Shown: one piece after another, positions 10,108 to 45,138 of the stretch | Layout of the letters: each line of letters begins with the position of its first letter | How positions within the stretch are numbered: the stretch's first letter is position 1 | Assembly (NCBI GenBank): GCA_020060545.1 | Contig: JAGUZX010000043.1 | Location: forward strand, 21,020-85,019 | From: Desulfovibrio sp. | GTDB taxonomy: Bacteria > Bacillota > Dethiobacteria > DTU022 | Reading direction: 5' to 3' | Length of the DNA: 64,000 nt | Notes under the pieces: model-generated | What the model was told of the DNA's origin: nothing | The model's database searches: none | What the model saw: the letters and a program-made list of their open reading frames with translations, nothing else | Translations under genes and position numbers: made by a program

Positions 10108-12186
10108 TTGAATATTCTAGTTGTTGACCGCAATGAAATATTCCCGGATCTTCTCAAAAAGGTCCTGGTTGAAGACAAAAAATGGAACATTATTACCTGC
10201 TCCTCGGGGCTGGTAACGCTGAAGCTCATTCAAAAATTCACTCCCGATATGCTGATCATGGATCTCAACCTGCCCGATATCGACAGCTTTGAAATGCTAA
10301 GCAAGCTGAAAAGCTTCAGCCGGGAGATCTATACGCTGGTTTTAATCGACAAACTGGAGTACGGGAAGCTTGAGCAGGCGCTTTTAGTCGGCATTGACGA
10401 CTATGTGGTGAAACCGATCGAACAAAAAGAGATGATCGCGCGGATCAAGAAAGCGATCTGGTCCAGTTCCCGGAGAAGCGCCCCGGGGATGGACAGGGAG
10501 GCGGGCATCCCTAAGCCCTGGGCGCTGGACGAAGAGCTGCCGGGGGTCAACCATATCATCATCTATCCCAATACCGCCTCCAAAATCCAAGAAACACGGG
10601 GGGAAGCTGCGGCAACCGGGCTGGAAAACGCCGGCGGGACGGATTTTCTAAAAACGGCGCGCGCTGCCGCAGCTGAAATAAACCCTGACGCGGCCGGGCA
10701 TGTGCAAAAGGACAATCCGCCGGTGAAGAGCGCTTCAACCTATACCTTCGGGTTAGTTAAACCGGTTGGTTTAAGCGGAGCGGATGCCGGCCAAACAGCA
10801 GTTTGCGATCCCCCGCCGGAAATCGCCGGCTTAACCCGCTCCGCGATAACTAATGCTCCTGTAGAAACGGATTCTTTTAGCGGCCCGGGTAGCCGGGGTG
10901 AAGCGGCGCCGGCTGAAGCTGAGCCCAAAAGCTGCGGCCGTAATTTGGCCGAAGAAGAAAAGGCCGATCCGCCAGGGTATCTTGAGTGGCCCGGCGAGGA
11001 CGAGTTCAATACCCGCCTGAACACAGGCGGCGGTACGGGGGGCGCGGCGGCCGGAACCGAAAACGCCGGCGGTATTCCTTTTCGAAAAGAGGCCGCGTTT
11101 TTTTCGGCGGGAGCAGCGCCTGCCGCAAGCCGGGATCGTGAAGGCGGCGCGGCGCCGGAGCGTGACCCGTCATATTTCTTTGGTAAACCGGTACGGATGG
11201 ACAGGGCAGGTGAGCCGGCAGAACCGGGACCGGATCGCCTGGAACCTCCCGATGCGTTAAAAGTGGAAGCCGATTTATTACAGCCGGGAGAGTCGAGCGC
11301 TCAGGAAAAACCAAAACCTTGGCGAAGCGCCGGCAGCGTCACGGGAGAGGCAGGCGCAGGAAAGCAAAGCGCCGGGCCCCTTTCTGCCGGCAAAGAGAGC
11401 GGCGCTTATACGGCGGAAGATAAACCCGGCGAAGAGCGATCCAGTGATCGCGGTTTTGCGGCAGAGGGCCTTGCAACCTATTCCTTTGGGTTAAAGCAGG
11501 CGGGAAAATCCAGTCAAGCCGAGGACTGGCCGGCGGTCTCTAAAAGCCGGGCCTACGCCAGGCCTCCGCTGGGCGGCAAAGAGAAAAAGAAGAAACAACC
11601 GGCCGTCGTGAGGATTTTGGGCAACATTTTTTTTGCCGGCTTGATGGTGATGATGGTGACCCTGGCTTTTTTCCTGGTCCAAAGCAGAATGGCCGGAGGC
11701 CCGCCGTCGGTGTTTGGCCACCAGTTGTATGTGGTGCTCAGCGGCAGCATGAACCCCGCTTTTAGCACGGGGAGCCTGGCTTTCGTCTGCCCGATTGAGC
11801 CCGAAAATGTTAAAGTAGGCGATATTATTACTTTTAAAAGCTCGCCGGTCGGCAAAACCCTTACCACTCACCGCGTAGTGGAAATCGACGGCGAAGACGG
11901 GCTTAGTTTTGTGACACGGGGTGACGCAAACCGGGTCAACGACCCCAACCCGGTTCCGGCGGAAAATGTGATCGGAAAGGTAAACGGTGCCATCCCTTAC
12001 CTGGGGTATCTGCTGGATTTCGCCAAAACCAGAAACGGGCTGCTTTTCCTGGTGGTGGTGCCGGGACTGCTGGTGATTGCCTTCGAGTTGCGCAGCCTGT
12101 TCCGGTATGCGGTTGAAAACCAAAAGCAGAAAGAGCTGCAAAAGGGAGGCGGTTTATATGCCGGACGGGTGGTGGATCAGCAATGA
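10108..12186 (+). CDS. Response-regulator receiver domain fused through a ~380-aa low-complexity linker and a TM helix to a SipW-type (archaeal/ER-type) signal peptidase I
   Basis: N-terminal REC domain (phospho-acceptor D in LIMDLNLPD, K in DYVVKP). An Ala/Gly/Pro/Glu-rich linker spans ~aa 120-500. TM segment VVRILGNIFFAGLMVMMVTLAFF. C-terminal S26 domain with catalytic SGSMNP (Ser), TTHRV (His) and a GDAN box. TTG start. Confidence 0.85.
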   Translation: MNILVVDRNEIFPDLLKKVLVEDKKWNIITCSSGLVTLKLIQKFTPDMLIMDLNLPDIDSFEMLSKLKSFSREIYTLVLIDKLEYGKLEQALLVGIDDYVVKPIEQKEMIARIKKAIWSSSRRSAPGMDREAGIPKPWALDEELPGVNHIIIYPNTASKIQETRGEAAATGLENAGGTDFLKTARAAAAEINPDAAGHVQKDNPPVKSASTYTFGLVKPVGLSGADAGQTAVCDPPPEIAGLTRSAITNAPVETDSFSGPGSRGEAAPAEAEPKSCGRNLAEEEKADPPGYLEWPGEDEFNTRLNTGGGTGGAAAGTENAGGIPFRKEAAFFSAGAAPAASRDREGGAAPERDPSYFFGKPVRMDRAGEPAEPGPDRLEPPDALKVEADLLQPGESSAQEKPKPWRSAGSVTGEAGAGKQSAGPLSAGKESGAYTAEDKPGEERSSDRGFAAEGLATYSFGLKQAGKSSQAEDWPAVSKSRAYARPPLGGKEKKKKQPAVVRILGNIFFAGLMVMMVTLAFFLVQSRMAGGPPSVFGHQLYVVLSGSMNPAFSTGSLAFVCPIEPENVKVGDIITFKSSPVGKTLTTHRVVEIDGEDGLSFVTRGDANRVNDPNPVPAENVIGKVNGAIPYLGYLLDFAKTRNGLLFLVVVPGLLVIAFELRSLFRYAVENQKQKELQKGGGLYAGRVVDQQ

Positions 12187-12761: not shown

Positions 12762-12877
12762 GTGCCAAAACTGATCGCATCACGCCAAGACCGGCGATGT
12801 GATCGTTTGCGAGATTTTCGAGAGGGGGGAATAAAGCAACGCAGCATGATCTTGCCCTAAAACTCGCCTAAATTAAC

Positions 12878-12960
12878 GATAATGGCAAACCTGCCGCAAG
12901 GCGGGGACGCAAAGCCAAGGGCCTTTCGCAAGGATGGCAGCCTGGCCGCCGGGGGAAAAA
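12878..12960 (+). ncRNA. c-di-GMP-I (GEMM) riboswitch, copy 1
   Basis: GGCAAACC-UGCC-GCAA(tetraloop)-GGCGGGGACGCAAAGCC followed by a P2 region. It matches the invariant GEMM core (…GGCAAACC…GNRA…GGGACGCAAAGCC…) of the V. cholerae Vc2 aptamer. It lies 25 nt upstream of the RBS of the second TasA-like gene. Confidence 0.8.
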
Positions 12961-12986
12961 GATAAGTGTAAATGGAGGGAGCAAAA

Positions 12987-13604
12987 ATGAATCGAAAAGT
13001 AATGATGAGCGTCCTGGTGATCCTGATGGCCACGGCGGCCGTGGCCGGCGCCACCATGGCCTGGTTTACCGACACGGCAACAGTTGAACCCAACACTTTC
13101 GTGGCGGGGACATTGAAAATCAGGGCCAACGAGGTGTTCAATTGGGCGGATCAAACCAGGCCCAATTGGAACCCCGGGGACTGTGACCAAAAGGAAATTA
13201 CCCTTGAAGTGACGGGGACCAAGTCGGTCTATCTCCGGGCCCGGATTACGGAAACATGGACCATGGTCGGTGCAAGCACGGTAACTTACACCAGGCGGAA
13301 TGCGCCGAACATCACCTGGAAAGTGAACGGACAACCCTGGAACCATGACGGCGCCTGGCAGTTGATCACCATCGACGGCGTTGATTACTGGTTCTATAAA
13401 GGCCCCGTTGACGCCAAACTGGCCTCGGGAGCGCAATTGCTGGTTCTTTCGGAGGTCTGCCTGGATGGAGCGGCCACGGGCAACGACTACCAGGGGGCTA
13501 CGTATACGCTGGCCATTTCTTTTGAAGCGGTTCAGACCACGAACCAGGCGGTAAACGATGTATGGGGATACAAGTTCGAAGGCGGTTCATGGGTGCCCAG
13601 ATAG
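12987..13604 (+). CDS. TasA/camelysin-like secreted protein 2 with SipW-cognate signal peptide
   Basis: ATG 6 nt after GGAGGGAG. Signal peptide followed by ATMAWFTD. 205 aa. Paralogous to 12183..12761. Confidence 0.8.
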   Translation: MNRKVMMSVLVILMATAAVAGATMAWFTDTATVEPNTFVAGTLKIRANEVFNWADQTRPNWNPGDCDQKEITLEVTGTKSVYLRARITETWTMVGASTVTYTRRNAPNITWKVNGQPWNHDGAWQLITIDGVDYWFYKGPVDAKLASGAQLLVLSEVCLDGAATGNDYQGATYTLAISFEAVQTTNQAVNDVWGYKFEGGSWVPR

Positions 13605-13741: not shown

Positions 13742-14407
13742 ATGCAAATGCAAAAATTCGTTCCGGCGATCATCAGTTTAGGGATAATGCTGGCTCTGGC
13801 CGGCCTGGTCCTGCTCATCCAACCTTACTATACGCTTGCCCAGGAAGACCATCCGTGCCGGATCACGGTTACCCCGCCGGAGGGCCGTTTTGCGATTGGG
13901 AATATGAATCCGGGTGACACGGCAAGTAAAAGCTTCACCGTGACCAAGGTCGGAGAGGCTCCTGCCTATCTTTACCTGAGGCAGGAATGGCTGCAGGGAA
14001 ACCCCCTCCCGGGTATGCCGGGAGATCTTTACAGCCAGCTCGTCATGGTAATCAGTTACCAGGGACGCCAGATTTACCGGGGCAAGATGAGCGCCCTGCC
14101 GAACCCGGTTAACGTTACCTTAATGACGCTGGGCCGCCCGATCCTGGTCGGCGAGTCGATCCGGCTCGACTGCAGCGTCCACCTTCCGGGGCCGGAGACC
14201 GGCAACGAGTTTCAGGGTTCGAGCGTGGTCACAAGGCTTGTTTTTTATACCGCCTGTTTCGAAGATGAGGAAGTTCCACCGGAGCCTCCGGAGATTGATC
14301 CTCCGGAGCTCCCGCCGACAAACGGCGTATTGCCGATGCTCCTGCTTGCCGCCGGGGTTTCAGTGATTTTCGCGGGGATTGTGCTCAGGAAAAAGGCGGA
14401 GGCGTAA
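13742..14407 (+). CDS. Secreted beta-rich protein with C-terminal LPPTNG-type cell-wall sorting signal (putative fibre anchor)
   Basis: N-terminal signal/TM. Pro-rich stalk (EEVPPEPPEIDPPE) followed by LPPTNG, a hydrophobic stretch and RKKAEA. This is the tripartite architecture of sortase substrates. Confidence 0.65.
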   Translation: MQMQKFVPAIISLGIMLALAGLVLLIQPYYTLAQEDHPCRITVTPPEGRFAIGNMNPGDTASKSFTVTKVGEAPAYLYLRQEWLQGNPLPGMPGDLYSQLVMVISYQGRQIYRGKMSALPNPVNVTLMTLGRPILVGESIRLDCSVHLPGPETGNEFQGSSVVTRLVFYTACFEDEEVPPEPPEIDPPELPPTNGVLPMLLLAAGVSVIFAGIVLRKKAEA

Positions 14408-14468: not shown

Positions 14469-14714
14469 ATGAACTGGAATTACCGGGTTTTGAAAGTGTA
14501 TGATCGCGAGCATGACAGCTATTATTACACGATTATCGAAGTTTTTTACGATCAAGCCGGCCGGATCGAGGGTTGGGTCAAAAACACTCAGCCCACGCGA
14601 TGGGAAGACTATGAGGGTTTAAGGCAAACGATCCTGGAACATCTGCCTGTTGCGTTTCAACAACCGGTGTTAATCGAGGTTGAAAATGAAAAATTGGTAG
14701 AATGCGCGGATTAA
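14469..14714 (+). CDS. Small hypothetical protein
   Basis: ATG 8 nt after AAGGAGAG. 81 aa with no recognisable domain. Confidence 0.45.
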   Translation: MNWNYRVLKVYDREHDSYYYTIIEVFYDQAGRIEGWVKNTQPTRWEDYEGLRQTILEHLPVAFQQPVLIEVENEKLVECAD

Positions 14715-14911
14715 GTTAGTAATCGATCCTATGCGGATGTATCATCCCAAAAAAAACTTGTGACTGGTAATATTTGTTGCAGGAATTTAAGGTTTATTGG
14801 CCAAAATAAGTATATGGATGTTTGGATTGGATGAGCTGTTAATTGAGACCTTAAAGGAGATGATGGCCGGCAAGATCCTGACTGCGAATTCAAGCAAGTA
14901 AAAATCCTGAC

Positions 14912-15000
14912 CGACAAGGCAAACCCGTCGAGAGGCGGGGACGCAAAGCCAAGGGTCTAAAGCCCGATTGACGGGCCATGATCGCCAGGCTACCGAAACA
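14912..15000 (+). ncRNA. c-di-GMP-I (GEMM) riboswitch, copy 2
   Basis: GGCAAACCCGUCGAGAGGCGGGGACGCAAAGCCAAGGGUCUAAAGCC…GGCUACCGAAACAGG. Same core as copies 1 and 3. The downstream GGTCCCTC…GAGGGAC hairpin (15020-15042) can sequester the RBS. Confidence 0.8.
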
Positions 15001-15048
15001 GGTTTTATTATTTCGGCTGTCGGTCCCTCACAAAGGAGGGACTTTATT

Positions 15049-16140
15049 TTGAGCAAAATAAGGTTTATTAATAGCATCGTGATCAGCGTTGTGATCGCCC
15101 TGATCCTTTCACTGCCGGGGATTTCAAAAATTACTGCCAGGGAAGATCTGACAATTTCGACTGTGGGCGCCGCGTCAAACGAAGCGGGAGCAGAAGAAGG
15201 CCCGGTGTTGCGGGAAGCAACGGCCGGCCTGCCTGGCGGCCCCGATCAGATTGGCCAGGCGGAAGCGGAAATAAACGGTGGTGCCGGAAACGCACCGGAA
15301 CAAAGTTCAACGCCGGGTTCCAGCCCGGAGCAGGGCGCTGTGCCAAAGCAGGAACTGGCTGCCGGGGAACAGTTGACGGAGAAGTCAACAGGCGCGCCGC
15401 CGCAGGAAGCGGTGAAAAATGAACCGGTCCAGGAGACGGTAAAAAGCGAGCCGGCCCCGCCCCCAACCAAGAGTGAAACGCCGCCGCCTGCCGCGCCGGT
15501 CAGCTTCAGTTGGGGCGCCGCGCAAACCTATCGTTACCGCACGGAGATAGTGTTAACCAACAGCGGAGCGGAAGTTTCACAGGGCGTACTGGTCAGGCTG
15601 CCCCTGCTGGAAAACAGCTCGCCGTATCAAAACACCACCCTCACTTCCATTAACTATGAACCTCTTGAGACCACGGGAAGGACAAGCTCTTTTCATCTCG
15701 GAGACATGCAGCCGGGTGAAACGAAAACGCTAATCGTGGATTATACCATTACGGTGCGCCCCGTTTGGCTCAATTCAACCAATGCGACCGTGGAAAAAGC
15801 AAGGCAGGCTTACCGGGAGTACGCCGGGAGCGGCAACTGCTTTGTTCTGGCGGCCGGTTTTGTAAACCGCAGCCGGGAATTGGGTCTTACCGCGCGGGTG
15901 GTCAACGGGATTGCCAACCCGCAAAGAGGGATATTCGCGCCGGGCTATATCCAAAACCGTCACAGCTGGGCCGAGTTTTATGTCGAAGGGCCGGGTTGGG
16001 TTCCGGTTGACCTTACTTTTCAATATTTCGGGCAGCTGCCCCAGGCTTCCCATATCGTCGAGAACTACGCCGACCAATCGCTGAAGCTCAACTATTTCGG
16101 GGGCAGAGTAAGCGCAGTTTGGCACACCAGAATCCTGTAA
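15049..16140 (+). CDS. Secreted transglutaminase-like cysteine protease superfamily protein with Pro/Glu-rich spacer
   Basis: TTG start 8 nt after GGAGGG, downstream of the riboswitch. Signal/TM MSKIRFINSIVISVVIALILSL. C-terminal transglutaminase-like core (Cys in GNCFVLAAGF, His in HSWAEFY, Asp in VPVDLT). Confidence 0.7.
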   Translation: MSKIRFINSIVISVVIALILSLPGISKITAREDLTISTVGAASNEAGAEEGPVLREATAGLPGGPDQIGQAEAEINGGAGNAPEQSSTPGSSPEQGAVPKQELAAGEQLTEKSTGAPPQEAVKNEPVQETVKSEPAPPPTKSETPPPAAPVSFSWGAAQTYRYRTEIVLTNSGAEVSQGVLVRLPLLENSSPYQNTTLTSINYEPLETTGRTSSFHLGDMQPGETKTLIVDYTITVRPVWLNSTNATVEKARQAYREYAGSGNCFVLAAGFVNRSRELGLTARVVNGIANPQRGIFAPGYIQNRHSWAEFYVEGPGWVPVDLTFQYFGQLPQASHIVENYADQSLKLNYFGGRVSAVWHTRIL

Positions 16141-16292: not shown

Positions 16293-17924
16293 TTGGAACG
16301 TTTTTTCCGCCAGAAACGGATCCTGTGGCTGCTGATCGGCCTGAGCGGCATCGTGTTTTTTCTGGCCGGCAAATTATTTTACCTGCAGCTGGTGCAGGGG
16401 CCTTCACTGACCCGGAGCGCCGTGCAGCAGCGCTTCCAAAGCATCATCCTGCTGGAAGGCCGCGGCGATATTCAGGATCGCCACGGGCGCTCTCTGCTGG
16501 ACGGGCGGCGCTCGATCGGGTTGCTCGCTTTCCCGGCCCAGTACCGCGGCAGTGAAGAAGAGATTATCCACCGCCTCTCTTCAGTAAACGGTATTGAAAA
16601 AATATCTTCCCCCCCGTATGGCCCCCTCCCTTTTTGGGTTACGCCCACCCTGAAACAGGATGTGCACACGCCACTTCCTACATTGCCGGGATTGATCCTC
16701 GCGTCCAGGGTGCAGCGCTACGGGCCTGACGCCCTCGCCAGGCATGCCGTGGGCTACCTCAAGGAAAGCGACGGCAGGGGAGTAAGCGGGATCGAGCTGT
16801 CTTTCGATCGCGAGCTGTCGGCGGGCCAAAAAACGGTCCTGGCGGCGCTGGTGGACGGGCGGAGCAGGCTGATCCCGGGCCTGGGTTACCGGATGCGCAA
16901 AGAAGAACCCGAAGCAAAAAACGTGGTCCTGGCCATCGATGGAGATCTGCAGCGCGAGGTGGAGCGGATCATGAACCGGCGGATCCGGCAGGGAGCGGTC
17001 GTGGTGATGGATCCCTGGAACGGGGATATCCTGGCCATGGCGAGCAGGCCTGATTTCAACCCGGGTGACCTGGGCGGGTCCTTGCTGCAGGAGTACGAAT
17101 CTTTTCTCAACCGGGCGCTCTGGGAATTCCAGCCCGGCTCGGTGTTCAAGGTGGTGGCCGCCGCCGCCGCGCTGAAAGAAGGCAAAGCCGGGCTATTTCA
17201 GACCTACCGCTGCCCGGGCGGTATTACTGTGGGCGGCCTTTTCTTCGCCTGCTCCAACCTGCACCAGAAGCAGGAGATCACCATGGTCGAGGCTTTCGCC
17301 CACTCCTGCAACAGCTATTTTATCAACCTGGCGCTTGAACTGGGCCCGGAGACGGTGGCCGCGTACGCGCGGCGTTTCGGTTTCGGTGAGGTTACGGGCC
17401 TGCCCGTGGGGGAGAAGCCCGGTTCCCTGCCCGCCGCGGCGGATCTGTCCAACCCGCGCGCCCAGGCCAACACCGCCATCGGCCAGGGCGCGGTACTGGC
17501 GACGCCGCTCCAGGTAGCGGCGATGTTCTCTGTAATAGCCAACGGCGGACACAAAATTCAGCCCCGCCTGGTACTGGCGCTGACGGACCGCTACGGGCGC
17601 GAATTCAGGCGCTTTTTGCCGCGGCGCGGTCAGGTGCTCCTCAGCCCGGTGACGGTAAGTCAGCTTAAATACCTGCTCATGGCGGTAATGGAGGAGGGGA
17701 CCGGGCGGCGGGGTAATACAACCGCCGCGCCGGCGGGGGCCAAGACCGGCACCGCCGAAAGCGGCCGCCGCCGGGACGGGCGGGAGGTGCTCAATCACTG
17801 GATCGCCGGCTTTTATCCGATTGAGCAGGCCGGGGCGGTAATCGCGGTATTTGCCGATGACCTCCTGGAGGGGACGGTGAGCGACGTATTCGGAGAGATC
17901 ACGAGATACCTGGAACGAAGGTGA
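16293..17924 (+). CDS. Class B penicillin-binding protein (FtsI/SpoVD-type transpeptidase)
   Basis: N-terminal TM. SVFK (SxxK), HSCNSYF (SxN) and AKTGTAE (KTG) motifs. 543 aa. Confidence 0.88.
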   Translation: MERFFRQKRILWLLIGLSGIVFFLAGKLFYLQLVQGPSLTRSAVQQRFQSIILLEGRGDIQDRHGRSLLDGRRSIGLLAFPAQYRGSEEEIIHRLSSVNGIEKISSPPYGPLPFWVTPTLKQDVHTPLPTLPGLILASRVQRYGPDALARHAVGYLKESDGRGVSGIELSFDRELSAGQKTVLAALVDGRSRLIPGLGYRMRKEEPEAKNVVLAIDGDLQREVERIMNRRIRQGAVVVMDPWNGDILAMASRPDFNPGDLGGSLLQEYESFLNRALWEFQPGSVFKVVAAAAALKEGKAGLFQTYRCPGGITVGGLFFACSNLHQKQEITMVEAFAHSCNSYFINLALELGPETVAAYARRFGFGEVTGLPVGEKPGSLPAAADLSNPRAQANTAIGQGAVLATPLQVAAMFSVIANGGHKIQPRLVLALTDRYGREFRRFLPRRGQVLLSPVTVSQLKYLLMAVMEEGTGRRGNTTAAPAGAKTGTAESGRRRDGREVLNHWIAGFYPIEQAGAVIAVFADDLLEGTVSDVFGEITRYLERR

Positions 17925-42220: not shown

Positions 42221-42254
42221 GTTTTTTGAAGTAAGTTGATAATGCGAATAAAAC

Positions 42255-42342
42255 TCGTTTCAGGGCAAACCCGTTGAAAAGCGGGGACGCAAAGCCGACA
42301 GGCCTAAAGCGCTACTGCCAGGGCGGCTGGGTTACCGGGCGG
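42255..42342 (+). ncRNA. c-di-GMP-I (GEMM) riboswitch, copy 3
   Basis: CAGGGCAAACCCGUUGAAAAGCGGGGACGCAAAGCCGACAGGCCUAAAGCGCUACUGCCAGGGCGGCUGGGUUACCGGGCGG. Near-identical to the Vc2 consensus (GGCAAACC…GAAA…GGGACGCAAAGCC…GGCCUAAA…GGGUUACCG). Confidence 0.88.
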
Positions 42343-42345
42343 ATC

Positions 42346-42382
42346 AAAAATCCCAAGGAAAACCCTGGGGATTTTTATGTTT
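42346..42382 (+). terminator. Intrinsic terminator forming the riboswitch expression platform
   Basis: AAAAAUCCCAAGG-aaaa-CCCUGGGGAUUUUU hairpin followed by AUGUUUU. Confidence 0.6.
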
Positions 42383-42456
42383 TAGCATCAAACAGGATTG
42401 AGTTTTTTCGAGGTAATTTAGGCTACACTTCTTTTTTCTATAATTTACGACAGTTA

Positions 42457-42525: not shown

Positions 42526-45138
42526 ATGGTACGCTTTGTCCGCAAGCGATTGGGCGATATCCTTTTGGAAGCCGGCGTCATCACGGAACAGCAGCTGGAA
42601 GAAGTATTGCAGGAACAGGTCACCAGCCGCAAACGGATCGGGCGGCTGCTCATCGAAAAAGAGCTGATCACCGAGGAACACTTGATCGATATCCTCGAGC
42701 GGCAGCTGGGCATCTCCCAGGTCAATCTCTATAACTATAATATCGACCCGAAGGTCGCCTCGTTGATCCCCATGTCGCTGGCCCAACGCTACATGGTGAT
42801 TCCAATTGGCAGAAAAGAACAAAAGATAATCCTGGCCATGGCCGACCCGATGAATATTATCGCCCTCGATGATGTGGCTATGATTACCGGTTCAGAGATC
42901 ATCCCGGTAATCGCTTCGGAGAGTTCTGTCCAGCATGCCATCAACCAAATCTATGGCCTGCAGGAGTCCCTGGAGATGAGCCTGGAGGATAAGAAAGTCA
43001 AGACCAAAGAAGACGAGGAGGAGCTCGCACGGCTGCGCGCCCTGGTGGAAGACGCACCCATTGTCAAAGTAGTCAATTCGCTGATCCACCAGGCGGCCAG
43101 CGAAGGGGCCAGTGACATCCATATCGAGCCGTCGGGCAAAGGGGTCAGGGTGCGCATGCGCATCGACGGGATCCTGCATGACCTGATGTCGCCGCCGAAA
43201 GACACGCAACCCTTAATTGTTTCCCGGATCAAGATCATGGCCAACCTGGACATCGCAGAGCGAAGGCTTCCCCAGGACGGTCGGATCCAGATGCAGGTGG
43301 GCTTAAACGACATCAACCTCCGGGTCTCGACGATGCCCACCATTCACGGTGAGAAAGTAGTAATCCGGCTGCTGGAAAAAGACCGGGTGATCGTTTCCCT
43401 GGACAAGCTTGGTTTTAATGAGCACAATTTCGAACTTTACAAACAATTTTTATTAAACCACTCCGGCATGATCCTGGTCACCGGGCCAACCGGTTGCGGT
43501 AAAACCACGACCCTTTATTCAACCTTGAATTATCTCAACCGTCCGGAGGACAATATCATCTCCGTGGAAGACCCGGTGGAATACCGCCTGGACGGGGTCA
43601 ACCAGATCCAGGTCAACCCGCGCATCAATTTAAACTTTGCCAACGCCCTGCGTTCCATCCTCCGGCAGGATCCCAACATCATCATGATCGGTGAAATCAG
43701 GGATCTCGAGACGGCGGAAATCGCCACCCGCGCCGCGCTGACCGGGCACCTTGTCCTGAGCACCCTGCACACCAACGATGCCGTCCGGGCCATCTCCCGG
43801 CTGATCGATATGGGCGTGGAAAACTATTTGATTACCTCCTCCCTGGTCGGCGTGATCGCCCAGCGCCTGGTCAGGCTGATCTGCCCCCACTGCCGCGAGA
43901 GTTACGCGCTCCCGGACCGGGAAAAAATCTTATTTCAAAAGATTTTCCGAAAAGTACCTCTGCAAACGCTTTACCGGGGGGCGGGGTGCAAAAGCTGCAA
44001 CCAGACCGGCTACCGGGGCCGCATCGCCATCCACGAGGTGCTTTCGGTCAGCCCCGCGATCCGGCGCCTGGTCCTGGCGGGAGCGACAGTGGAGCAGCTG
44101 CAGCGGCAAGCCCTGGTGGAGGGGATGGTTACCCTTCTGGAGGATGGGCGCCGCCGGGTTGAAGAAGGAATTACTTCCCTGGAGGAAATCTTGCGGGTCG
44201 CTTTTAACAGCATGAATATCGACGGTGAAAGCAGGCATCTCGAACCGGCGGTTGAGGCGGTTGGAGCGGCTCAAACGGCTCCGGAGGCGCCGGCGGTCGG
44301 GCTTGTTCCGGAAAGCGGGCGCTTGACCGGCGCCGGGCCTGAAATAATGCCTGGACGCGCCGGCTTGCAGCAGCCTCCCGCCCGGGAAGAAAGCAGTTAT
44401 GTTTTTAACCAGCTTAAAAACATGAAAGGCGCGCCTGTAACGCCTGGTGTTACCGCCCGGGAAATGCAGCCGGAAAAAATAATCACGCCCGCCGTCGCCA
44501 TCAAATTAAAAGGCCCCGCCAGCGCCAAAGTCGGTGAAACCTATACCTGCCATTTCAGCGTGATCAATAAGGGGAATGTGCCTTTAACCGGGGTAACGGT
44601 AACGGATTCACTCTTCGGAGAGGATTGGAGTTACCCGATCGGAGAGCTTCCGCCTGGCGCCGAATCGGCGTTTGTGATGAACTTTACCACCGACAGGGGG
44701 CATGCCGGCAGCCTGGAGAATACGGCCACGGTTACGGGATTTTACCGGTCAACCCCTGTTACCGCCCAGGACAAGCAGATCATCGAGATTATCGATCTTG
44801 TCCAGCCCGGCCTGGCTATTGAAATCTCCGGTCCGGCCACAGCCATACCCGGGGAAACGGTAGTTTATAAATTCACGGTTACCAATTCTGGCAGTGTTCC
44901 CCTGAAAAGGGTCAAAGTCACGGATCCCCTTTTCGGCACCGGCTGGCGCAACTTCATCAACGCGATCGCGCCGGGACAATCGGTTAAATTCAACGTGGAG
45001 TATACCATTCCGGCAAGCGCCTATGCGCGGCTGAAGAATACGGCCACCGCCTCCGGATGGCATGAAGACGAGGTAACCGCGCAGGGGAGTCACACGATCG
45101 AGATTTTGTCCTGGCAAACCGGGACCGTGTCGAGGTGA
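42526..45138 (+). CDS. pilB: Type IV pilus assembly ATPase PilB/GspE with N-terminal MshEN-type c-di-GMP-binding motif and a C-terminal extension of two DUF11 repeat domains
   Basis: N-terminus KRLGDILLEAGVITEQQLEEVLQEQ fits the MshEN RLGxxLLxxGxIxxxxLxxxLxxQ motif, and a second partial copy follows. Walker A GPTGCGKTT, Asp and His boxes, and a tetracysteine Zn motif (CPHC…CKSC). The core ends …GITSLEEILRV and is followed by a ~300-aa in-frame extension with two ~100-aa DUF11-like repeats (…TVTNSGSVPL…V.VTD…). Confidence 0.85.
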   Translation: MVRFVRKRLGDILLEAGVITEQQLEEVLQEQVTSRKRIGRLLIEKELITEEHLIDILERQLGISQVNLYNYNIDPKVASLIPMSLAQRYMVIPIGRKEQKIILAMADPMNIIALDDVAMITGSEIIPVIASESSVQHAINQIYGLQESLEMSLEDKKVKTKEDEEELARLRALVEDAPIVKVVNSLIHQAASEGASDIHIEPSGKGVRVRMRIDGILHDLMSPPKDTQPLIVSRIKIMANLDIAERRLPQDGRIQMQVGLNDINLRVSTMPTIHGEKVVIRLLEKDRVIVSLDKLGFNEHNFELYKQFLLNHSGMILVTGPTGCGKTTTLYSTLNYLNRPEDNIISVEDPVEYRLDGVNQIQVNPRINLNFANALRSILRQDPNIIMIGEIRDLETAEIATRAALTGHLVLSTLHTNDAVRAISRLIDMGVENYLITSSLVGVIAQRLVRLICPHCRESYALPDREKILFQKIFRKVPLQTLYRGAGCKSCNQTGYRGRIAIHEVLSVSPAIRRLVLAGATVEQLQRQALVEGMVTLLEDGRRRVEEGITSLEEILRVAFNSMNIDGESRHLEPAVEAVGAAQTAPEAPAVGLVPESGRLTGAGPEIMPGRAGLQQPPAREESSYVFNQLKNMKGAPVTPGVTAREMQPEKIITPAVAIKLKGPASAKVGETYTCHFSVINKGNVPLTGVTVTDSLFGEDWSYPIGELPPGAESAFVMNFTTDRGHAGSLENTATVTGFYRSTPVTAQDKQIIEIIDLVQPGLAIEISGPATAIPGETVVYKFTVTNSGSVPLKRVKVTDPLFGTGWRNFINAIAPGQSVKFNVEYTIPASAYARLKNTATASGWHEDEVTAQGSHTIEILSWQTGTVSR

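What the first reader, a model, noticed from the sequence alone, without database searches (positions are those of the whole stretch)
14912..15048. Second GEMM riboswitch with an RBS-sequestering hairpin controls a secreted transglutaminase-like protein
The same aptamer core lies upstream of 15049..16140. Between aptamer and start codon, GGTCCCTC (15021-15028) is complementary to the Shine-Dalgarno GGAGGGAC (15035-15042). This implies translational rather than transcriptional control. The earlier-called ORF start at 14968 lies inside the aptamer and is therefore wrong.
Basis: partly seen in the sequence, partly recalled or inferred. Interest (0 to 1): 0.7.

Follow-up and report, generated by a model that had tools for sequence, protein, structure and literature searches.

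The report
c-di-GMP riboswitch with RBS-masking terminator
This is a genuine but ordinary class-I c-di-GMP riboswitch in front of an exported transglutaminase-like gene, and its conserved hairpin hides the ribosome-binding site and also looks like a transcription terminator, so c-di-GMP most likely turns the gene off.

Summary
Rfam finds a c-di-GMP-I aptamer at 14908-14997 (79.4 bits, cut-off 35). TTG 15049 is the supported start.

- The hairpin is followed by TTTATTTT and scores as an intrinsic terminator. A U-run follows it in 37 of 41 species, against UUUU in 5 of 98 other GGAGG-start spacers.
- GACCGACA (14909-14916) is the 5' strand of P1 plus the start of the ligand-pocket strand J1/2. 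It pairs with TGTCGGTC (15018-15025), which overlaps the anti-SD. In relatives this helix runs to 11 bp, through the whole pocket strand, and it covaries.
- A hairpin (14993-15016) captures the 3' strand of P1.

Unconstrained folding gives the long-range helix in 35 of 41 leaders. Forcing P1 gives the full hairpin in 39 of 41.

Best reading: an OFF switch. c-di-GMP locks P1, so the terminator/SD-masking hairpin forms.

Tandem c-di-GMP-I riboswitches on transglutaminase-like genes in Bacillota were published in 2025. This is a new member of a known kind, of modest interest.

The parts
14906..15002 (+). c-di-GMP-I aptamer including its closing helix P1. P1 = CCUG 14906-09 : CAGG 14999-15002, plus C14912-G14913 : C14994-G14995. 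P2 = 14919-14944 with a GAGA loop. P3 = 14948-14991.
   Evidence: Rfam RF01051 at 79.4 bits over 14908-14997. P1 is the MFE closing helix when the transcript ends at 15002. P1 is 96-98% paired across 41 leaders, with U:A to C:G changes in 3.
14914..14918 (+). J1/2 pocket strand ACAAG. G14918 corresponds to Vc2 G20, which contacts one guanine of the ligand. C14993 corresponds to C92.
   Evidence: Register comparison with the Rfam consensus and with Vc2 numbering as used in PMC11705072. G at this position indicates c-di-GMP rather than cGAMP specificity (PMC9481103).
14909..14916 (+). 5' strand of the long-range helix (anti-anti-SD / antiterminator strand), GACCGACA. It overlaps the P1 5' strand and the start of J1/2.
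   Evidence: Pairs with 15018-15025 in the MFE. The pattern is unique in the window. In relatives the helix extends to 11 bp, ~90% paired, with A:U/G:C covariation (21/10) at one pair and C:G/U:A/U:G at another.
14993..15016 (+). Competitor hairpin CCGAAA(14993-98)...UUUCGG(15011-16). It captures the 3' strand of P1 and the C92-equivalent when no ligand is bound.
   Evidence: Present in the MFE. A hairpin using at least 4 nt of the P1 3' strand is predicted in at least 29 of 41 leaders, in two sequence variants: GAAACAG...CUGUUUC and CCGAAA...UUUCGG.
15003..15013 (+). U-rich run UUUUAUUAUUU directly after the P1 3' strand.
   Evidence: Read from the sequence. The same feature follows P1 in the upstream aptamer of the 23 tandem leaders (22/23 by script, 23/23 by eye) and in 25 of 39 platform-bearing aptamers. 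Its role is inferred only.
15018..15025 (+). Switching strand UGUCGGUC. It pairs either with 14909-16 (no ligand) or, through GGUC 15022-25, with the SD strand.
15022..15043 (+). Terminator / SD-sequestering hairpin: anti-SD GGUCCCUC 15022-29, loop ACAAAG 15030-35, SD strand GAGGGACU 15036-43. The SD core GGAGG is 15035-39.
   Evidence: -13.9 kcal/mol. Terminator-pattern hit. Conserved in 41 of 41 leaders, mean -13.2 kcal/mol.
15043..15050 (+). U-tract UUUAUUUU following the stem. It overlaps the start codon.
   Evidence: At least 5 U of 8 in 37 of 41 species, against UUUU in 5 of 98 background SD-start spacers.
15049..16140 (+). Regulated gene, TTG start, 363 aa. Layout: N-terminal hydrophobic helix, ~100-aa disordered Pro/Glu/Ala-rich linker, beta-sandwich, transglutaminase-like Cys-His-Asp core.
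   Evidence: Pfam PF01841, 46.6 bits. C264, H305 and D321 are invariant in 40 homologues. AlphaFold model with pLDDT above 90 over residues ~150-363 and helix 2-21. The best PDB fold match is 3ISR, a putative cysteine protease. Identical to a 363-aa NCBI protein.

Best explanation
A single class-I c-di-GMP riboswitch acts as an OFF switch on a transglutaminase-like gene through one dual-purpose hairpin.

With c-di-GMP bound: the aptamer's closing helix P1 (14906-13 with 14994-15002) and the pocket strand J1/2 are locked. The downstream strand UGUCGGUCCCUC is then free, and GGUCCCUC pairs with the Shine-Dalgarno strand GAGGGACU. This 8-bp G+C-rich stem sits directly before a U-run, so RNA polymerase is expected to terminate at about 15046-15051. 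Any full-length mRNA has its ribosome-binding site masked.

Without c-di-GMP: P1 is weak. Its 3' strand is taken by the hairpin 14993-15016. Its 5' strand plus the start of J1/2 (GACCGACA 14909-16) pairs with UGUCGGUC 15018-25. That removes the four base pairs at the foot of the terminator stem, next to the U-run. Transcription then reads through, and only a 4-5-bp remnant is left on the SD.

Shown here: the aptamer, all four helices, their conservation, covariation in P1 and in the long-range helix, the specificity of the U-run, and the thermodynamic preference of each state.

Inferred: ligand binding, the OFF direction, and the relative weight of termination versus translation block.
For: - Aptamer: Rfam 79.4 bits. 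Pocket nucleotides equivalent to Vc2 G20, A47 and C92 are present.
- Forty other species carry the same leader in front of the orthologous gene. Fifteen of those loci were re-checked with Rfam, and all aptamers score 61-85 bits.
- SD hairpin: 98.8% paired and nearly invariant, although the proteins are only 38-63% identical.
- Long-range helix: ~90% paired over 11 pairs. Pair 13:131 is A:U in 21 and G:C in 10 leaders. Pair 10:134 is C:G 39, U:A 1, U:G 1. Versions slid by 1-3 columns pair only 28-52%.
- Internal control: upstream aptamers of tandem leaders have no such partner and show variable 5' flanks (GAACGAUAAUG, GCACGAUAAUG and others). Platform-bearing aptamers keep GACCGACAA(A/G)G.
- Folding: the long-range helix is in the unconstrained MFE of 35 of 41 leaders, and the full SD hairpin in only 7 of 41. 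With P1 forced and J1/2 unpaired, the full hairpin forms in 39 of 41. The mean cost is 9.4 kcal/mol (5.7 in the window), which by my estimate lies within the binding energy of a pM-nM ligand.
- Stepwise folding: P1 is the MFE at 15002, and the long-range helix takes over at 15025.
- Terminator: pattern hit. The U-run is present in 37 of 41 leaders, against UUUU in 5 of 98 background spacers.
- Direction: the long-range helix uses the equivalents of Vc2 C13 and G14 (the top of P1). In relatives it also uses all of J1/2, including the G20 equivalent. The holo structure needs these free (PMC11705072). The logic is the same as in the characterised OFF switch Cd1, where aptamer and terminator coexist and compete with an antiterminator (PMC9262584).
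Against: - No experiment: ligand binding, termination and translation effects are all untested.
- The SD hairpin is almost invariant, so it offers hardly any covariation (one compensatory change).
- The G:C cases at pair 13:131 may trace back to only one to three evolutionary events.
- In the window the long-range helix is only 8 bp and does not reach the G20 equivalent. In six leaders it is absent from the MFE.
- A 4-5-bp remnant (CCCUC:GAGGG) still covers part of the SD in the predicted ligand-free state, so 'ON' may be leaky or weak.
- Four species lack the U-run.
- The terminator stem is short and its U-run is interrupted by an A in the window.
- No promoter was identified between 14715 and 14905, so the transcript's 5' end is unknown.
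- Repression by c-di-GMP is not the naive expectation for a gene next to a biofilm-matrix operon.
Confidence: 0.68

Rival explanations
1. One reading: a purely translational riboswitch. The hairpin only masks the Shine-Dalgarno sequence, and the U-run is just A/U-rich spacer with no termination.
For: - The SD is inside the stem in all 41 leaders.
- Four species keep the hairpin without a U-run.
- The stem is short (8 bp) and the U-run in the window is interrupted.
- The Vc2 c-di-GMP-I riboswitch is reported to repress translation (PMC11705072).
Against: - The U-run is present in 37 of 41 leaders. It is rare in other SD-start spacers of the same genomes: UUUU 5 of 98, UUUUU 1 of 98, mean U fraction 0.22.
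- The hairpin plus tail meets the terminator pattern.
- The ligand-free fold opens precisely the stem base next to the U-run. That is what a terminator switch needs, while a 4-5-bp remnant stays on the SD.
- The hosts are Bacillota, and another riboswitch in this window uses a plain terminator.
Confidence: 0.2
2. An ON switch. The long-range helix 14909-16:15018-25 is an extended or alternative P1 that c-di-GMP stabilises around a four-way junction. This would hold the anti-SD away from the SD, so that c-di-GMP induces the gene.
For: - In the MFE the long-range helix coexists with intact P2 and P3.
- In the window it stops before the G20 equivalent.
- Induction by c-di-GMP would fit a gene beside a TasA-like matrix operon.
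Against: - In relatives the helix extends through all of J1/2, including the G20 equivalent, and the covarying pairs lie in that part.
- It replaces the canonical inner P1 pairs that stack under the ligand.
- It is accompanied by a hairpin that sequesters the C92/C93/G94 equivalents.
- A canonical P1 in the Rfam register exists and is conserved with covariation.
- Upstream aptamers in tandem leaders have P1 followed by a U-run, which also reads as OFF.
Confidence: 0.09
3. The aptamer is real, but the hairpin is a constitutive element (a leaky terminator or mRNA-stability hairpin) that is not coupled to ligand binding. This would resemble Bc1 of B. thuringiensis, which binds c-di-GMP yet does not change downstream expression.
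For: Bc1 is a precedent for a c-di-GMP-I riboswitch whose terminators mask any ligand response (PMC11218506). A remnant hairpin persists in the predicted ligand-free state.
Against: The switching strand, its partner in the aptamer's 5' flank and the competitor hairpin are all conserved or covary across 41 species. That is hard to explain without coupling.
Confidence: 0.03

Closest known systems
Cd1, the c-di-GMP-I riboswitch upstream of the flgB operon of Clostridioides difficile (transcriptional OFF switch; PMC9262584)
   Same: Class-I aptamer in a Bacillota 5' leader. The aptamer and terminator folds can coexist, and both compete with an antiterminator. Ligand binding favours termination.
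   Different: In Cd1 the antiterminator uses the 3' aptamer strand (A) with the switching strand (T). Here the switching strand pairs with the 5' aptamer strand (P1 5' strand plus J1/2) in a helix that encloses the whole aptamer, and the 3' strand is taken by a hairpin of its own. Here the terminator stem also contains the Shine-Dalgarno sequence.
Vc2, the c-di-GMP-I riboswitch of Vibrio cholerae tfoY (PMC11705072)
   Same: Same aptamer class and pocket nucleotides. Ligand-dependent P1 formation leads to repression of translation.
   Different: It comes from a proteobacterium, and that paper describes no terminator. The platform sequences are unrelated.
[quoted passage not shown]
   Same: Same riboswitch class, same phylum and the same kind of target gene. 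23 of the related loci found here are such doublets.
   Different: The window carries a single aptamer. From the passages read here, those papers list the association but do not describe this expression platform.
Bc1 of Bacillus thuringiensis, a c-di-GMP-I riboswitch with combined transcription/translation control (PMC11218506)
   Same: A class-I riboswitch in Bacillota in which terminator structures also affect translation.
   Different: Bc1 has a long platform with two separate terminators and an 'incoherent' effect, and shows no response to c-di-GMP in vivo. Here there is one compact hairpin in which both effects point the same way.
LapG/LapD of Pseudomonas fluorescens (PMC3032545), and from my own knowledge the c-di-GMP-I-repressed secreted protease PPEP-1/Zmp1 of C. 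difficile
   Same: Functional analogy only: an exported protease that acts on surface or matrix proteins and is allowed to act only when c-di-GMP is low. From my own knowledge, LapG is transglutaminase-like.
   Different: LapG is controlled post-translationally by the c-di-GMP receptor LapD, not by a riboswitch. No substrate or activity is known for the protein here. Its Pfam match is PF01841, and its best solved fold match is an uncharacterised putative cysteine protease, 3ISR.

Membership tests
c-di-GMP-I riboswitch (GEMM-I, Rfam RF01051) | Covariance-model score above the curated gathering threshold over the full model | tested here: met
   79.4 bits against 35, model positions 1-87 of 87, E 5.6e-14; same result on the sub-region.
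c-di-GMP-I riboswitch (GEMM-I, Rfam RF01051) | Two hairpins (P2 with a GNRA tetraloop, P3 with its receptor region) joined at a junction and closed by P1 | tested here: met
   P2 14919-14944 with a GAGA loop and P3 14948-14991 in the cmscan alignment. P2 shows compensatory changes at 5 of 6 inner pairs. P1 (CCUG:CAGG plus CG:CG) is 96-98% paired across 41 leaders.
c-di-GMP-I riboswitch (GEMM-I, Rfam RF01051) | Ligand-contacting nucleotides equivalent to Vc2 G20, A47 and C92; G rather than A at position 20 distinguishes c-di-GMP from cGAMP sensors | tested here: met
   G14918, the AAA at 14945-47 and C14993 align with the conserved consensus positions. Numbering was mapped with PMC11705072. The G/A rule is taken from PMC9481103.
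c-di-GMP-I riboswitch (GEMM-I, Rfam RF01051) | Binds c-di-GMP with high affinity | not testable with these tools
   Needs in-line probing, ITC or a gel shift.
c-di-GMP-I riboswitch (GEMM-I, Rfam RF01051) | Sits in the 5' leader of a gene on the same strand, with an expression platform whose pairing excludes the aptamer fold | tested here: met
   The aptamer ends 52 nt before TTG 15049. Alternative helices are documented.
Intrinsic (Rho-independent) terminator | G+C-rich stem-loop followed immediately by a U-run | tested here: met
   8-bp stem with 5 G:C pairs, 6-nt loop, then TTATTTTG. Conserved in 37 of 41 species and enriched over the spacer background.
Intrinsic (Rho-independent) terminator | Causes transcript release at the U-run | not testable with these tools
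   Needs in vitro transcription or Term-seq.
SD-sequestering (translational) riboswitch platform | The Shine-Dalgarno sequence is base-paired in one conformer and released in the other | tested here: inconclusive
   Full 8-bp masking occurs in the P1-constrained fold in 39 of 41 leaders. In the unconstrained fold a 4-5-bp remnant still covers GAGG(G) in most leaders, so the degree of release is unclear.
Tandem c-di-GMP-I riboswitch | Two or more aptamers in one leader | tested here: not met
   Only one aptamer lies between 14650 and 15100, even at E up to 10. 23 related loci do have two.
Transglutaminase-like superfamily (Pfam PF01841), exported | Profile match above threshold with a Cys-His-Asp triad, plus an N-terminal export signal | tested here: met
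   46.6 bits against 23. C264, H305 and D321 are invariant in 40 homologues. An N-terminal helix at residues 2-21 followed by a disordered linker is predicted. Signal-peptide cleavage and secretion themselves were not tested.

The most novel reading that the evidence does not exclude
The leader uses an uncommon OFF-switch wiring. The antiterminator is a long-range helix between the aptamer's 5' strand (P1 5' strand plus pocket strand) and the terminator's 5' strand, helped by a separate hairpin that removes the P1 3' strand. In addition, the ligand-closed aptamer followed by a U-run (15003-15013, and the upstream aptamers in relatives) may itself act as a first terminator. Biologically, c-di-GMP would repress an exported transglutaminase-like protease encoded next to a riboswitch-controlled TasA-like fibre operon. 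That would be a riboswitch version of the LapG or PPEP-1 logic: cut or remodel the matrix only when c-di-GMP is low.
Probability: 0.3. Interest if true: 0.5.

Novelty: new member of a known kind. Interest (0 to 1): 0.3.

Why it matters
The result corrects a gene start: the IMG call begins inside the aptamer. It also assigns a probable direction (OFF) and mechanism to a riboswitch that controls a widespread but uncharacterised family of exported transglutaminase-like proteins in Syntrophomonadaceae/Dethiobacteria-type Bacillota.

The conserved three-helix switch gives precise, cheap mutational tests. If the OFF direction holds, it points to an enzyme made only at low c-di-GMP beside a TasA-like matrix operon. 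Such an enzyme would be a candidate matrix-processing or dispersal factor.

For riboswitch biology the gain is incremental. The class is well known, its tandem forms are known, and the link to this gene family has been published.

Tried and rejected
- Second, degenerate aptamer upstream in the window, as in the tandem relatives: none found at E up to 10.
- Sigma-70 promoter between 14715 and 14905: no hit. The only pattern match lies inside the aptamer, so the transcription start is unknown.
- Locating the source contig by exact protein look-up failed. The genome scan returned only relatives of at most 63% identity, so the organism is known only as a Bacillota relative of Syntrophomonadaceae/Dethiobacteria MAGs.
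- Sequence search of the PDB and NCBIfam gave nothing for the protein. Fold search gave only an uncharacterised putative cysteine protease, 3ISR, so no specific activity can be assigned.
- Folding the leader of the first riboswitch (12830-13000), to compare its direction of control, gave no structure better than shuffles (z = +1.0). I dropped this line.
- cGAMP specificity was rejected, because the position-20 equivalent is G.
- The ON-switch reading was considered and put at low probability (see rivals).
- The hairpin as terminator of the upstream gene was rejected: that ORF ends at 14714, about 300 nt away, with the aptamer in between.

Full report
**1. What is in the sequence**

Rfam places a full-length c-di-GMP-I aptamer at 14908-14997 on the + strand (79.4 bits, gathering score 35, E 5.6e-14). 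It is one of three aptamers of that clan in the window. The others are at 12875-12954 and 42254-42339.

- P2 (14919-14944) carries a GAGA tetraloop. P3 is 14948-14991.
- The closing helix P1, in the same register as the P1 annotated in the related Rfam model, is CCUG 14906-09 : CAGG 14999-15002 plus C14912-G14913 : C14994-G14995.
- I mapped positions to Vc2 numbering using PMC11705072. G14913 corresponds to G14 (top of P1), G14918 to G20, and C14993 to C92.
- G at the position-20 equivalent marks a c-di-GMP sensor rather than a cGAMP sensor (PMC9481103).

GGTCCCTC-ACAAA-GGAGGGAC occurs once in the window, at 15022-15042. The stem is 8 bp with a 6-nt loop and -13.9 kcal/mol.

**2. Start codon**

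TTG 15049 lies 9 nt after GGAGG.
- The 363-aa product is identical to a protein annotated by NCBI. The 390-aa form starting at 14968 is the JGI/IMG call for the same contig.
- Position 14968 lies inside stem P3.
- The N-termini of 39 homologues align with residue 1 of the 363-aa form.
- One relative (L046) also uses TTG at the equivalent place.

**3. The regulated protein**

It matches Pfam Transglut_core, and Cys264, His305 and Asp321 are invariant in 40 homologues. The AlphaFold model shows an N-terminal helix (residues 2-21), about 100 disordered residues, and then a confident beta-sandwich plus transglutaminase-like core. The best solved fold match is an uncharacterised putative cysteine protease, 3ISR. 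Sequence searches of the PDB and NCBIfam gave nothing. 'Exported' is a reasonable inference. 'Secreted' has not been shown.

**4. Comparative evidence**

A scan of one genome per species found 53 loci encoding relatives. All are MAGs labelled Syntrophomonadaceae, Dethiobacteria-like or Bacillota. In 40 of them an aptamer sits directly upstream of the gene with the same platform as in the window:

CCUGACCGACAAAGG - aptamer - CCGAAACAGG - short hairpin - CUUUGUCGGUCCCUC - loop - GGAGGGACUUUUU(G/A)AUG.

Fifteen of these loci were re-checked with Rfam. Every aptamer scored 61-85 bits. The proteins are only 38-63% identical to the window's, yet the anti-SD and SD strands are essentially invariant.

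**5. Four helices tested on the 41-leader alignment**

- P1: 96-98% paired, with U:A to C:G in three leaders and U:G in eight.
- P2 (positive control): compensatory changes at five of six inner pairs.
- SD hairpin: 98.8% paired, with a single compensatory change. Its support therefore comes from conservation rather than covariation (all).
- Long-range helix (columns 4-14 with 130-140; window 14909-16 with 15018-25): about 90% paired. One pair is A:U in 21 and G:C in 10 leaders. Another is C:G 39, U:A 1, U:G 1. Versions slid by 1-3 columns pair only 28-52%. The ten G:C cases may go back to few events.

There is an independent control. In tandem leaders the upstream aptamer has no downstream partner, and its 5' flank varies freely (GAACGAUAAUG, GCACGAUAAUG, UGCACGAAAUG). 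Platform-bearing aptamers keep GACCGACAA(A/G)G.

A fifth element is a hairpin that takes up the P1 3' strand. It occurs as GAAACAG...CUGUUUC, or, as in the window, CCGAAA 14993-98 ... UUUCGG 15011-16. It is predicted in at least 29 of 41 leaders.

**6. Which fold goes with which state**

- Unconstrained MFE folds contain the long-range helix in 35 of 41 leaders and the full SD hairpin in only 7.
- With P1 forced and J1/2 kept single-stranded, to mimic the holo aptamer, the full 8-bp hairpin forms in 39 of 41.
- The energy gap averages 9.4 kcal/mol and is 5.7 in the window. By my estimate a pM-nM ligand could pay this.
- Folding growing transcripts of the window gives the canonical aptamer with P1 at 15002. 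The long-range helix appears as soon as 15025 is made. After that only 4-5 bp of the SD hairpin can form.

The long-range helix consumes the equivalents of C13/G14 and, in relatives, all of J1/2 including the G20 equivalent. The competitor hairpin consumes the C92-G94 equivalents. Both are therefore incompatible with the ligand-bound pocket described for Vc2. Ligand binding should favour the hairpin, which makes this an OFF switch. The logic matches the characterised Cd1 OFF switch, in which aptamer and terminator coexist and compete with an antiterminator (PMC9262584). The difference is that here the switching strand pairs with the 5' aptamer strand rather than the 3' strand.

**7. Transcription or translation?**

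The hairpin is followed by UUUAUUUU and is reported by the terminator scan.
- At least 5 U in the 8 nt after the stem occur in 37 of 41 species.
- Among 98 other GGAGG-start spacers of ORFs of at least 120 aa in the same DNA, UUUU occurs in 5 and UUUUU in 1, and the mean U fraction is 0.22. SD masking alone does not require the U-run.
- The ligand-free fold opens exactly the four pairs at the foot of the stem, next to the U-run. That is the critical part of a terminator. A short remnant remains on the SD.
- Four species lack the U-run but keep the hairpin.

I conclude that the hairpin is dual-purpose: a terminator in most species and an SD mask in all.

**8. Context**

- The first riboswitch (12875-12954) precedes a TasA/BsaA-like, SipW-dependent matrix protein (12987-13604).
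- A conserved ORF without Pfam match (13742-14407) lies between that gene and the transglutaminase-gene riboswitch. It recurs in nine related loci.
- A PBP transpeptidase gene follows at 16293.
- The third riboswitch (42254-42339) has a classic terminator and precedes a PilB/MshE-type ATPase.

The window is thus a c-di-GMP-controlled surface and matrix region. An exported Cys-His-Asp enzyme made only at low c-di-GMP recalls LapG (PMC3032545). From my own knowledge it also recalls the riboswitch-repressed protease PPEP-1 of C. difficile. This is analogy, not evidence.

**9. Novelty**

The riboswitch class is well characterised. Tandem c-di-GMP-I arrangements are the most numerous tandem class (347 doublets; PMC9481103). 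[quoted passage not shown]

The window holds a singlet member of that association. What is added here is the anatomy of the conserved platform and a predicted direction of control. I rate it a new member of a known kind, with modest interest (0.3).

**10. Limits**

- Everything about function is inferred from sequence, conservation and thermodynamic folding.
- The transcription start is unknown (no promoter hit).
- The source organism was not identified.
- The covariation counts are not corrected for phylogeny.

Noticed in passing
L003, L004, L006, L007, L010, L012, L014-L017, L019-L022, L026, L032, L033, L035-L037, L039, L043, L048 (positions): In 23 related species the transglutaminase-like gene has two c-di-GMP-I aptamers 136-209 nt apart. 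Only the downstream one carries the SD/terminator platform. The window has a single aptamer.
   Followed up: partly
window 15003-15013; upstream aptamers of the 23 tandem loci: The 3' strand of P1 (CAGG/CGGG) is followed at once by a U-rich run. This holds for 22/23 upstream aptamers by script (23/23 by eye) and for 25/39 platform-bearing aptamers. The ligand-closed aptamer may therefore itself act as a terminator hairpin.
   Followed up: partly
window 14860-14901: A 13-codon mini-ORF (MMAGKILTANSSK) sits behind AAAGGAG (14853-59). Its stop codon lies 5 nt before the P1 5' strand, so a terminating ribosome would sit on the strand that forms the long-range helix.
   Followed up: no
window 15040-15064: In the full-length fold the U-run pairs with codons 3-6 (AAAAUAAGG), giving an 11-bp A/U hairpin around the UUG start. 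Relatives show weaker CUUUUU:AAGAAG pairing with their Lys codons. This is possibly chance.
   Followed up: no
window 12875-12954: The first aptamer scores best against the variant model c-di-GMP-I-GGC (70.5 bits). However, it reads GCAAAG where that model's consensus has GCGAAG, so its pocket looks canonical. It precedes a TasA/BsaA-like SipW-dependent matrix protein (12987-13604), and its leader has no fold better than shuffles.
   Followed up: partly
window 42254-42385 and 42526-45138: The third c-di-GMP-I aptamer is followed by a classic long-stem terminator (42347-42385). The next ORF is a PilB/MshE-type ATPase with an MshEN c-di-GMP-binding domain. In the mechanical ORF it is fused to DUF11/CARDB-like C-terminal domains.
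   Followed up: partly
window 10108-12186: A 692-aa ORF has a response-regulator receiver domain and a weak C-terminal similarity to signal peptidase S26 (E 0.05). Relatives of its C-terminal ~200 aa lie near the transglutaminase-like gene in 13 loci. It may be a SipW-type peptidase.
   Followed up: partly
window 13742-14407: A 221-aa ORF with no Pfam or NCBIfam match is conserved (41-52% identity) between the TasA-like gene and the transglutaminase-gene riboswitch in nine related loci.
   Followed up: no
window 14968 versus 15049: Two public annotations of the same gene disagree: JGI/IMG gives 390 aa from TTG 14968 (inside the aptamer), and NCBI gives 363 aa from TTG 15049.
   Followed up: yes
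L048 1590-1689 (- strand): An Rfam PYLIS_3 (pyrrolysine insertion sequence, mttB) match just above threshold (39.4 bits against 38) in one related locus.
   Followed up: no
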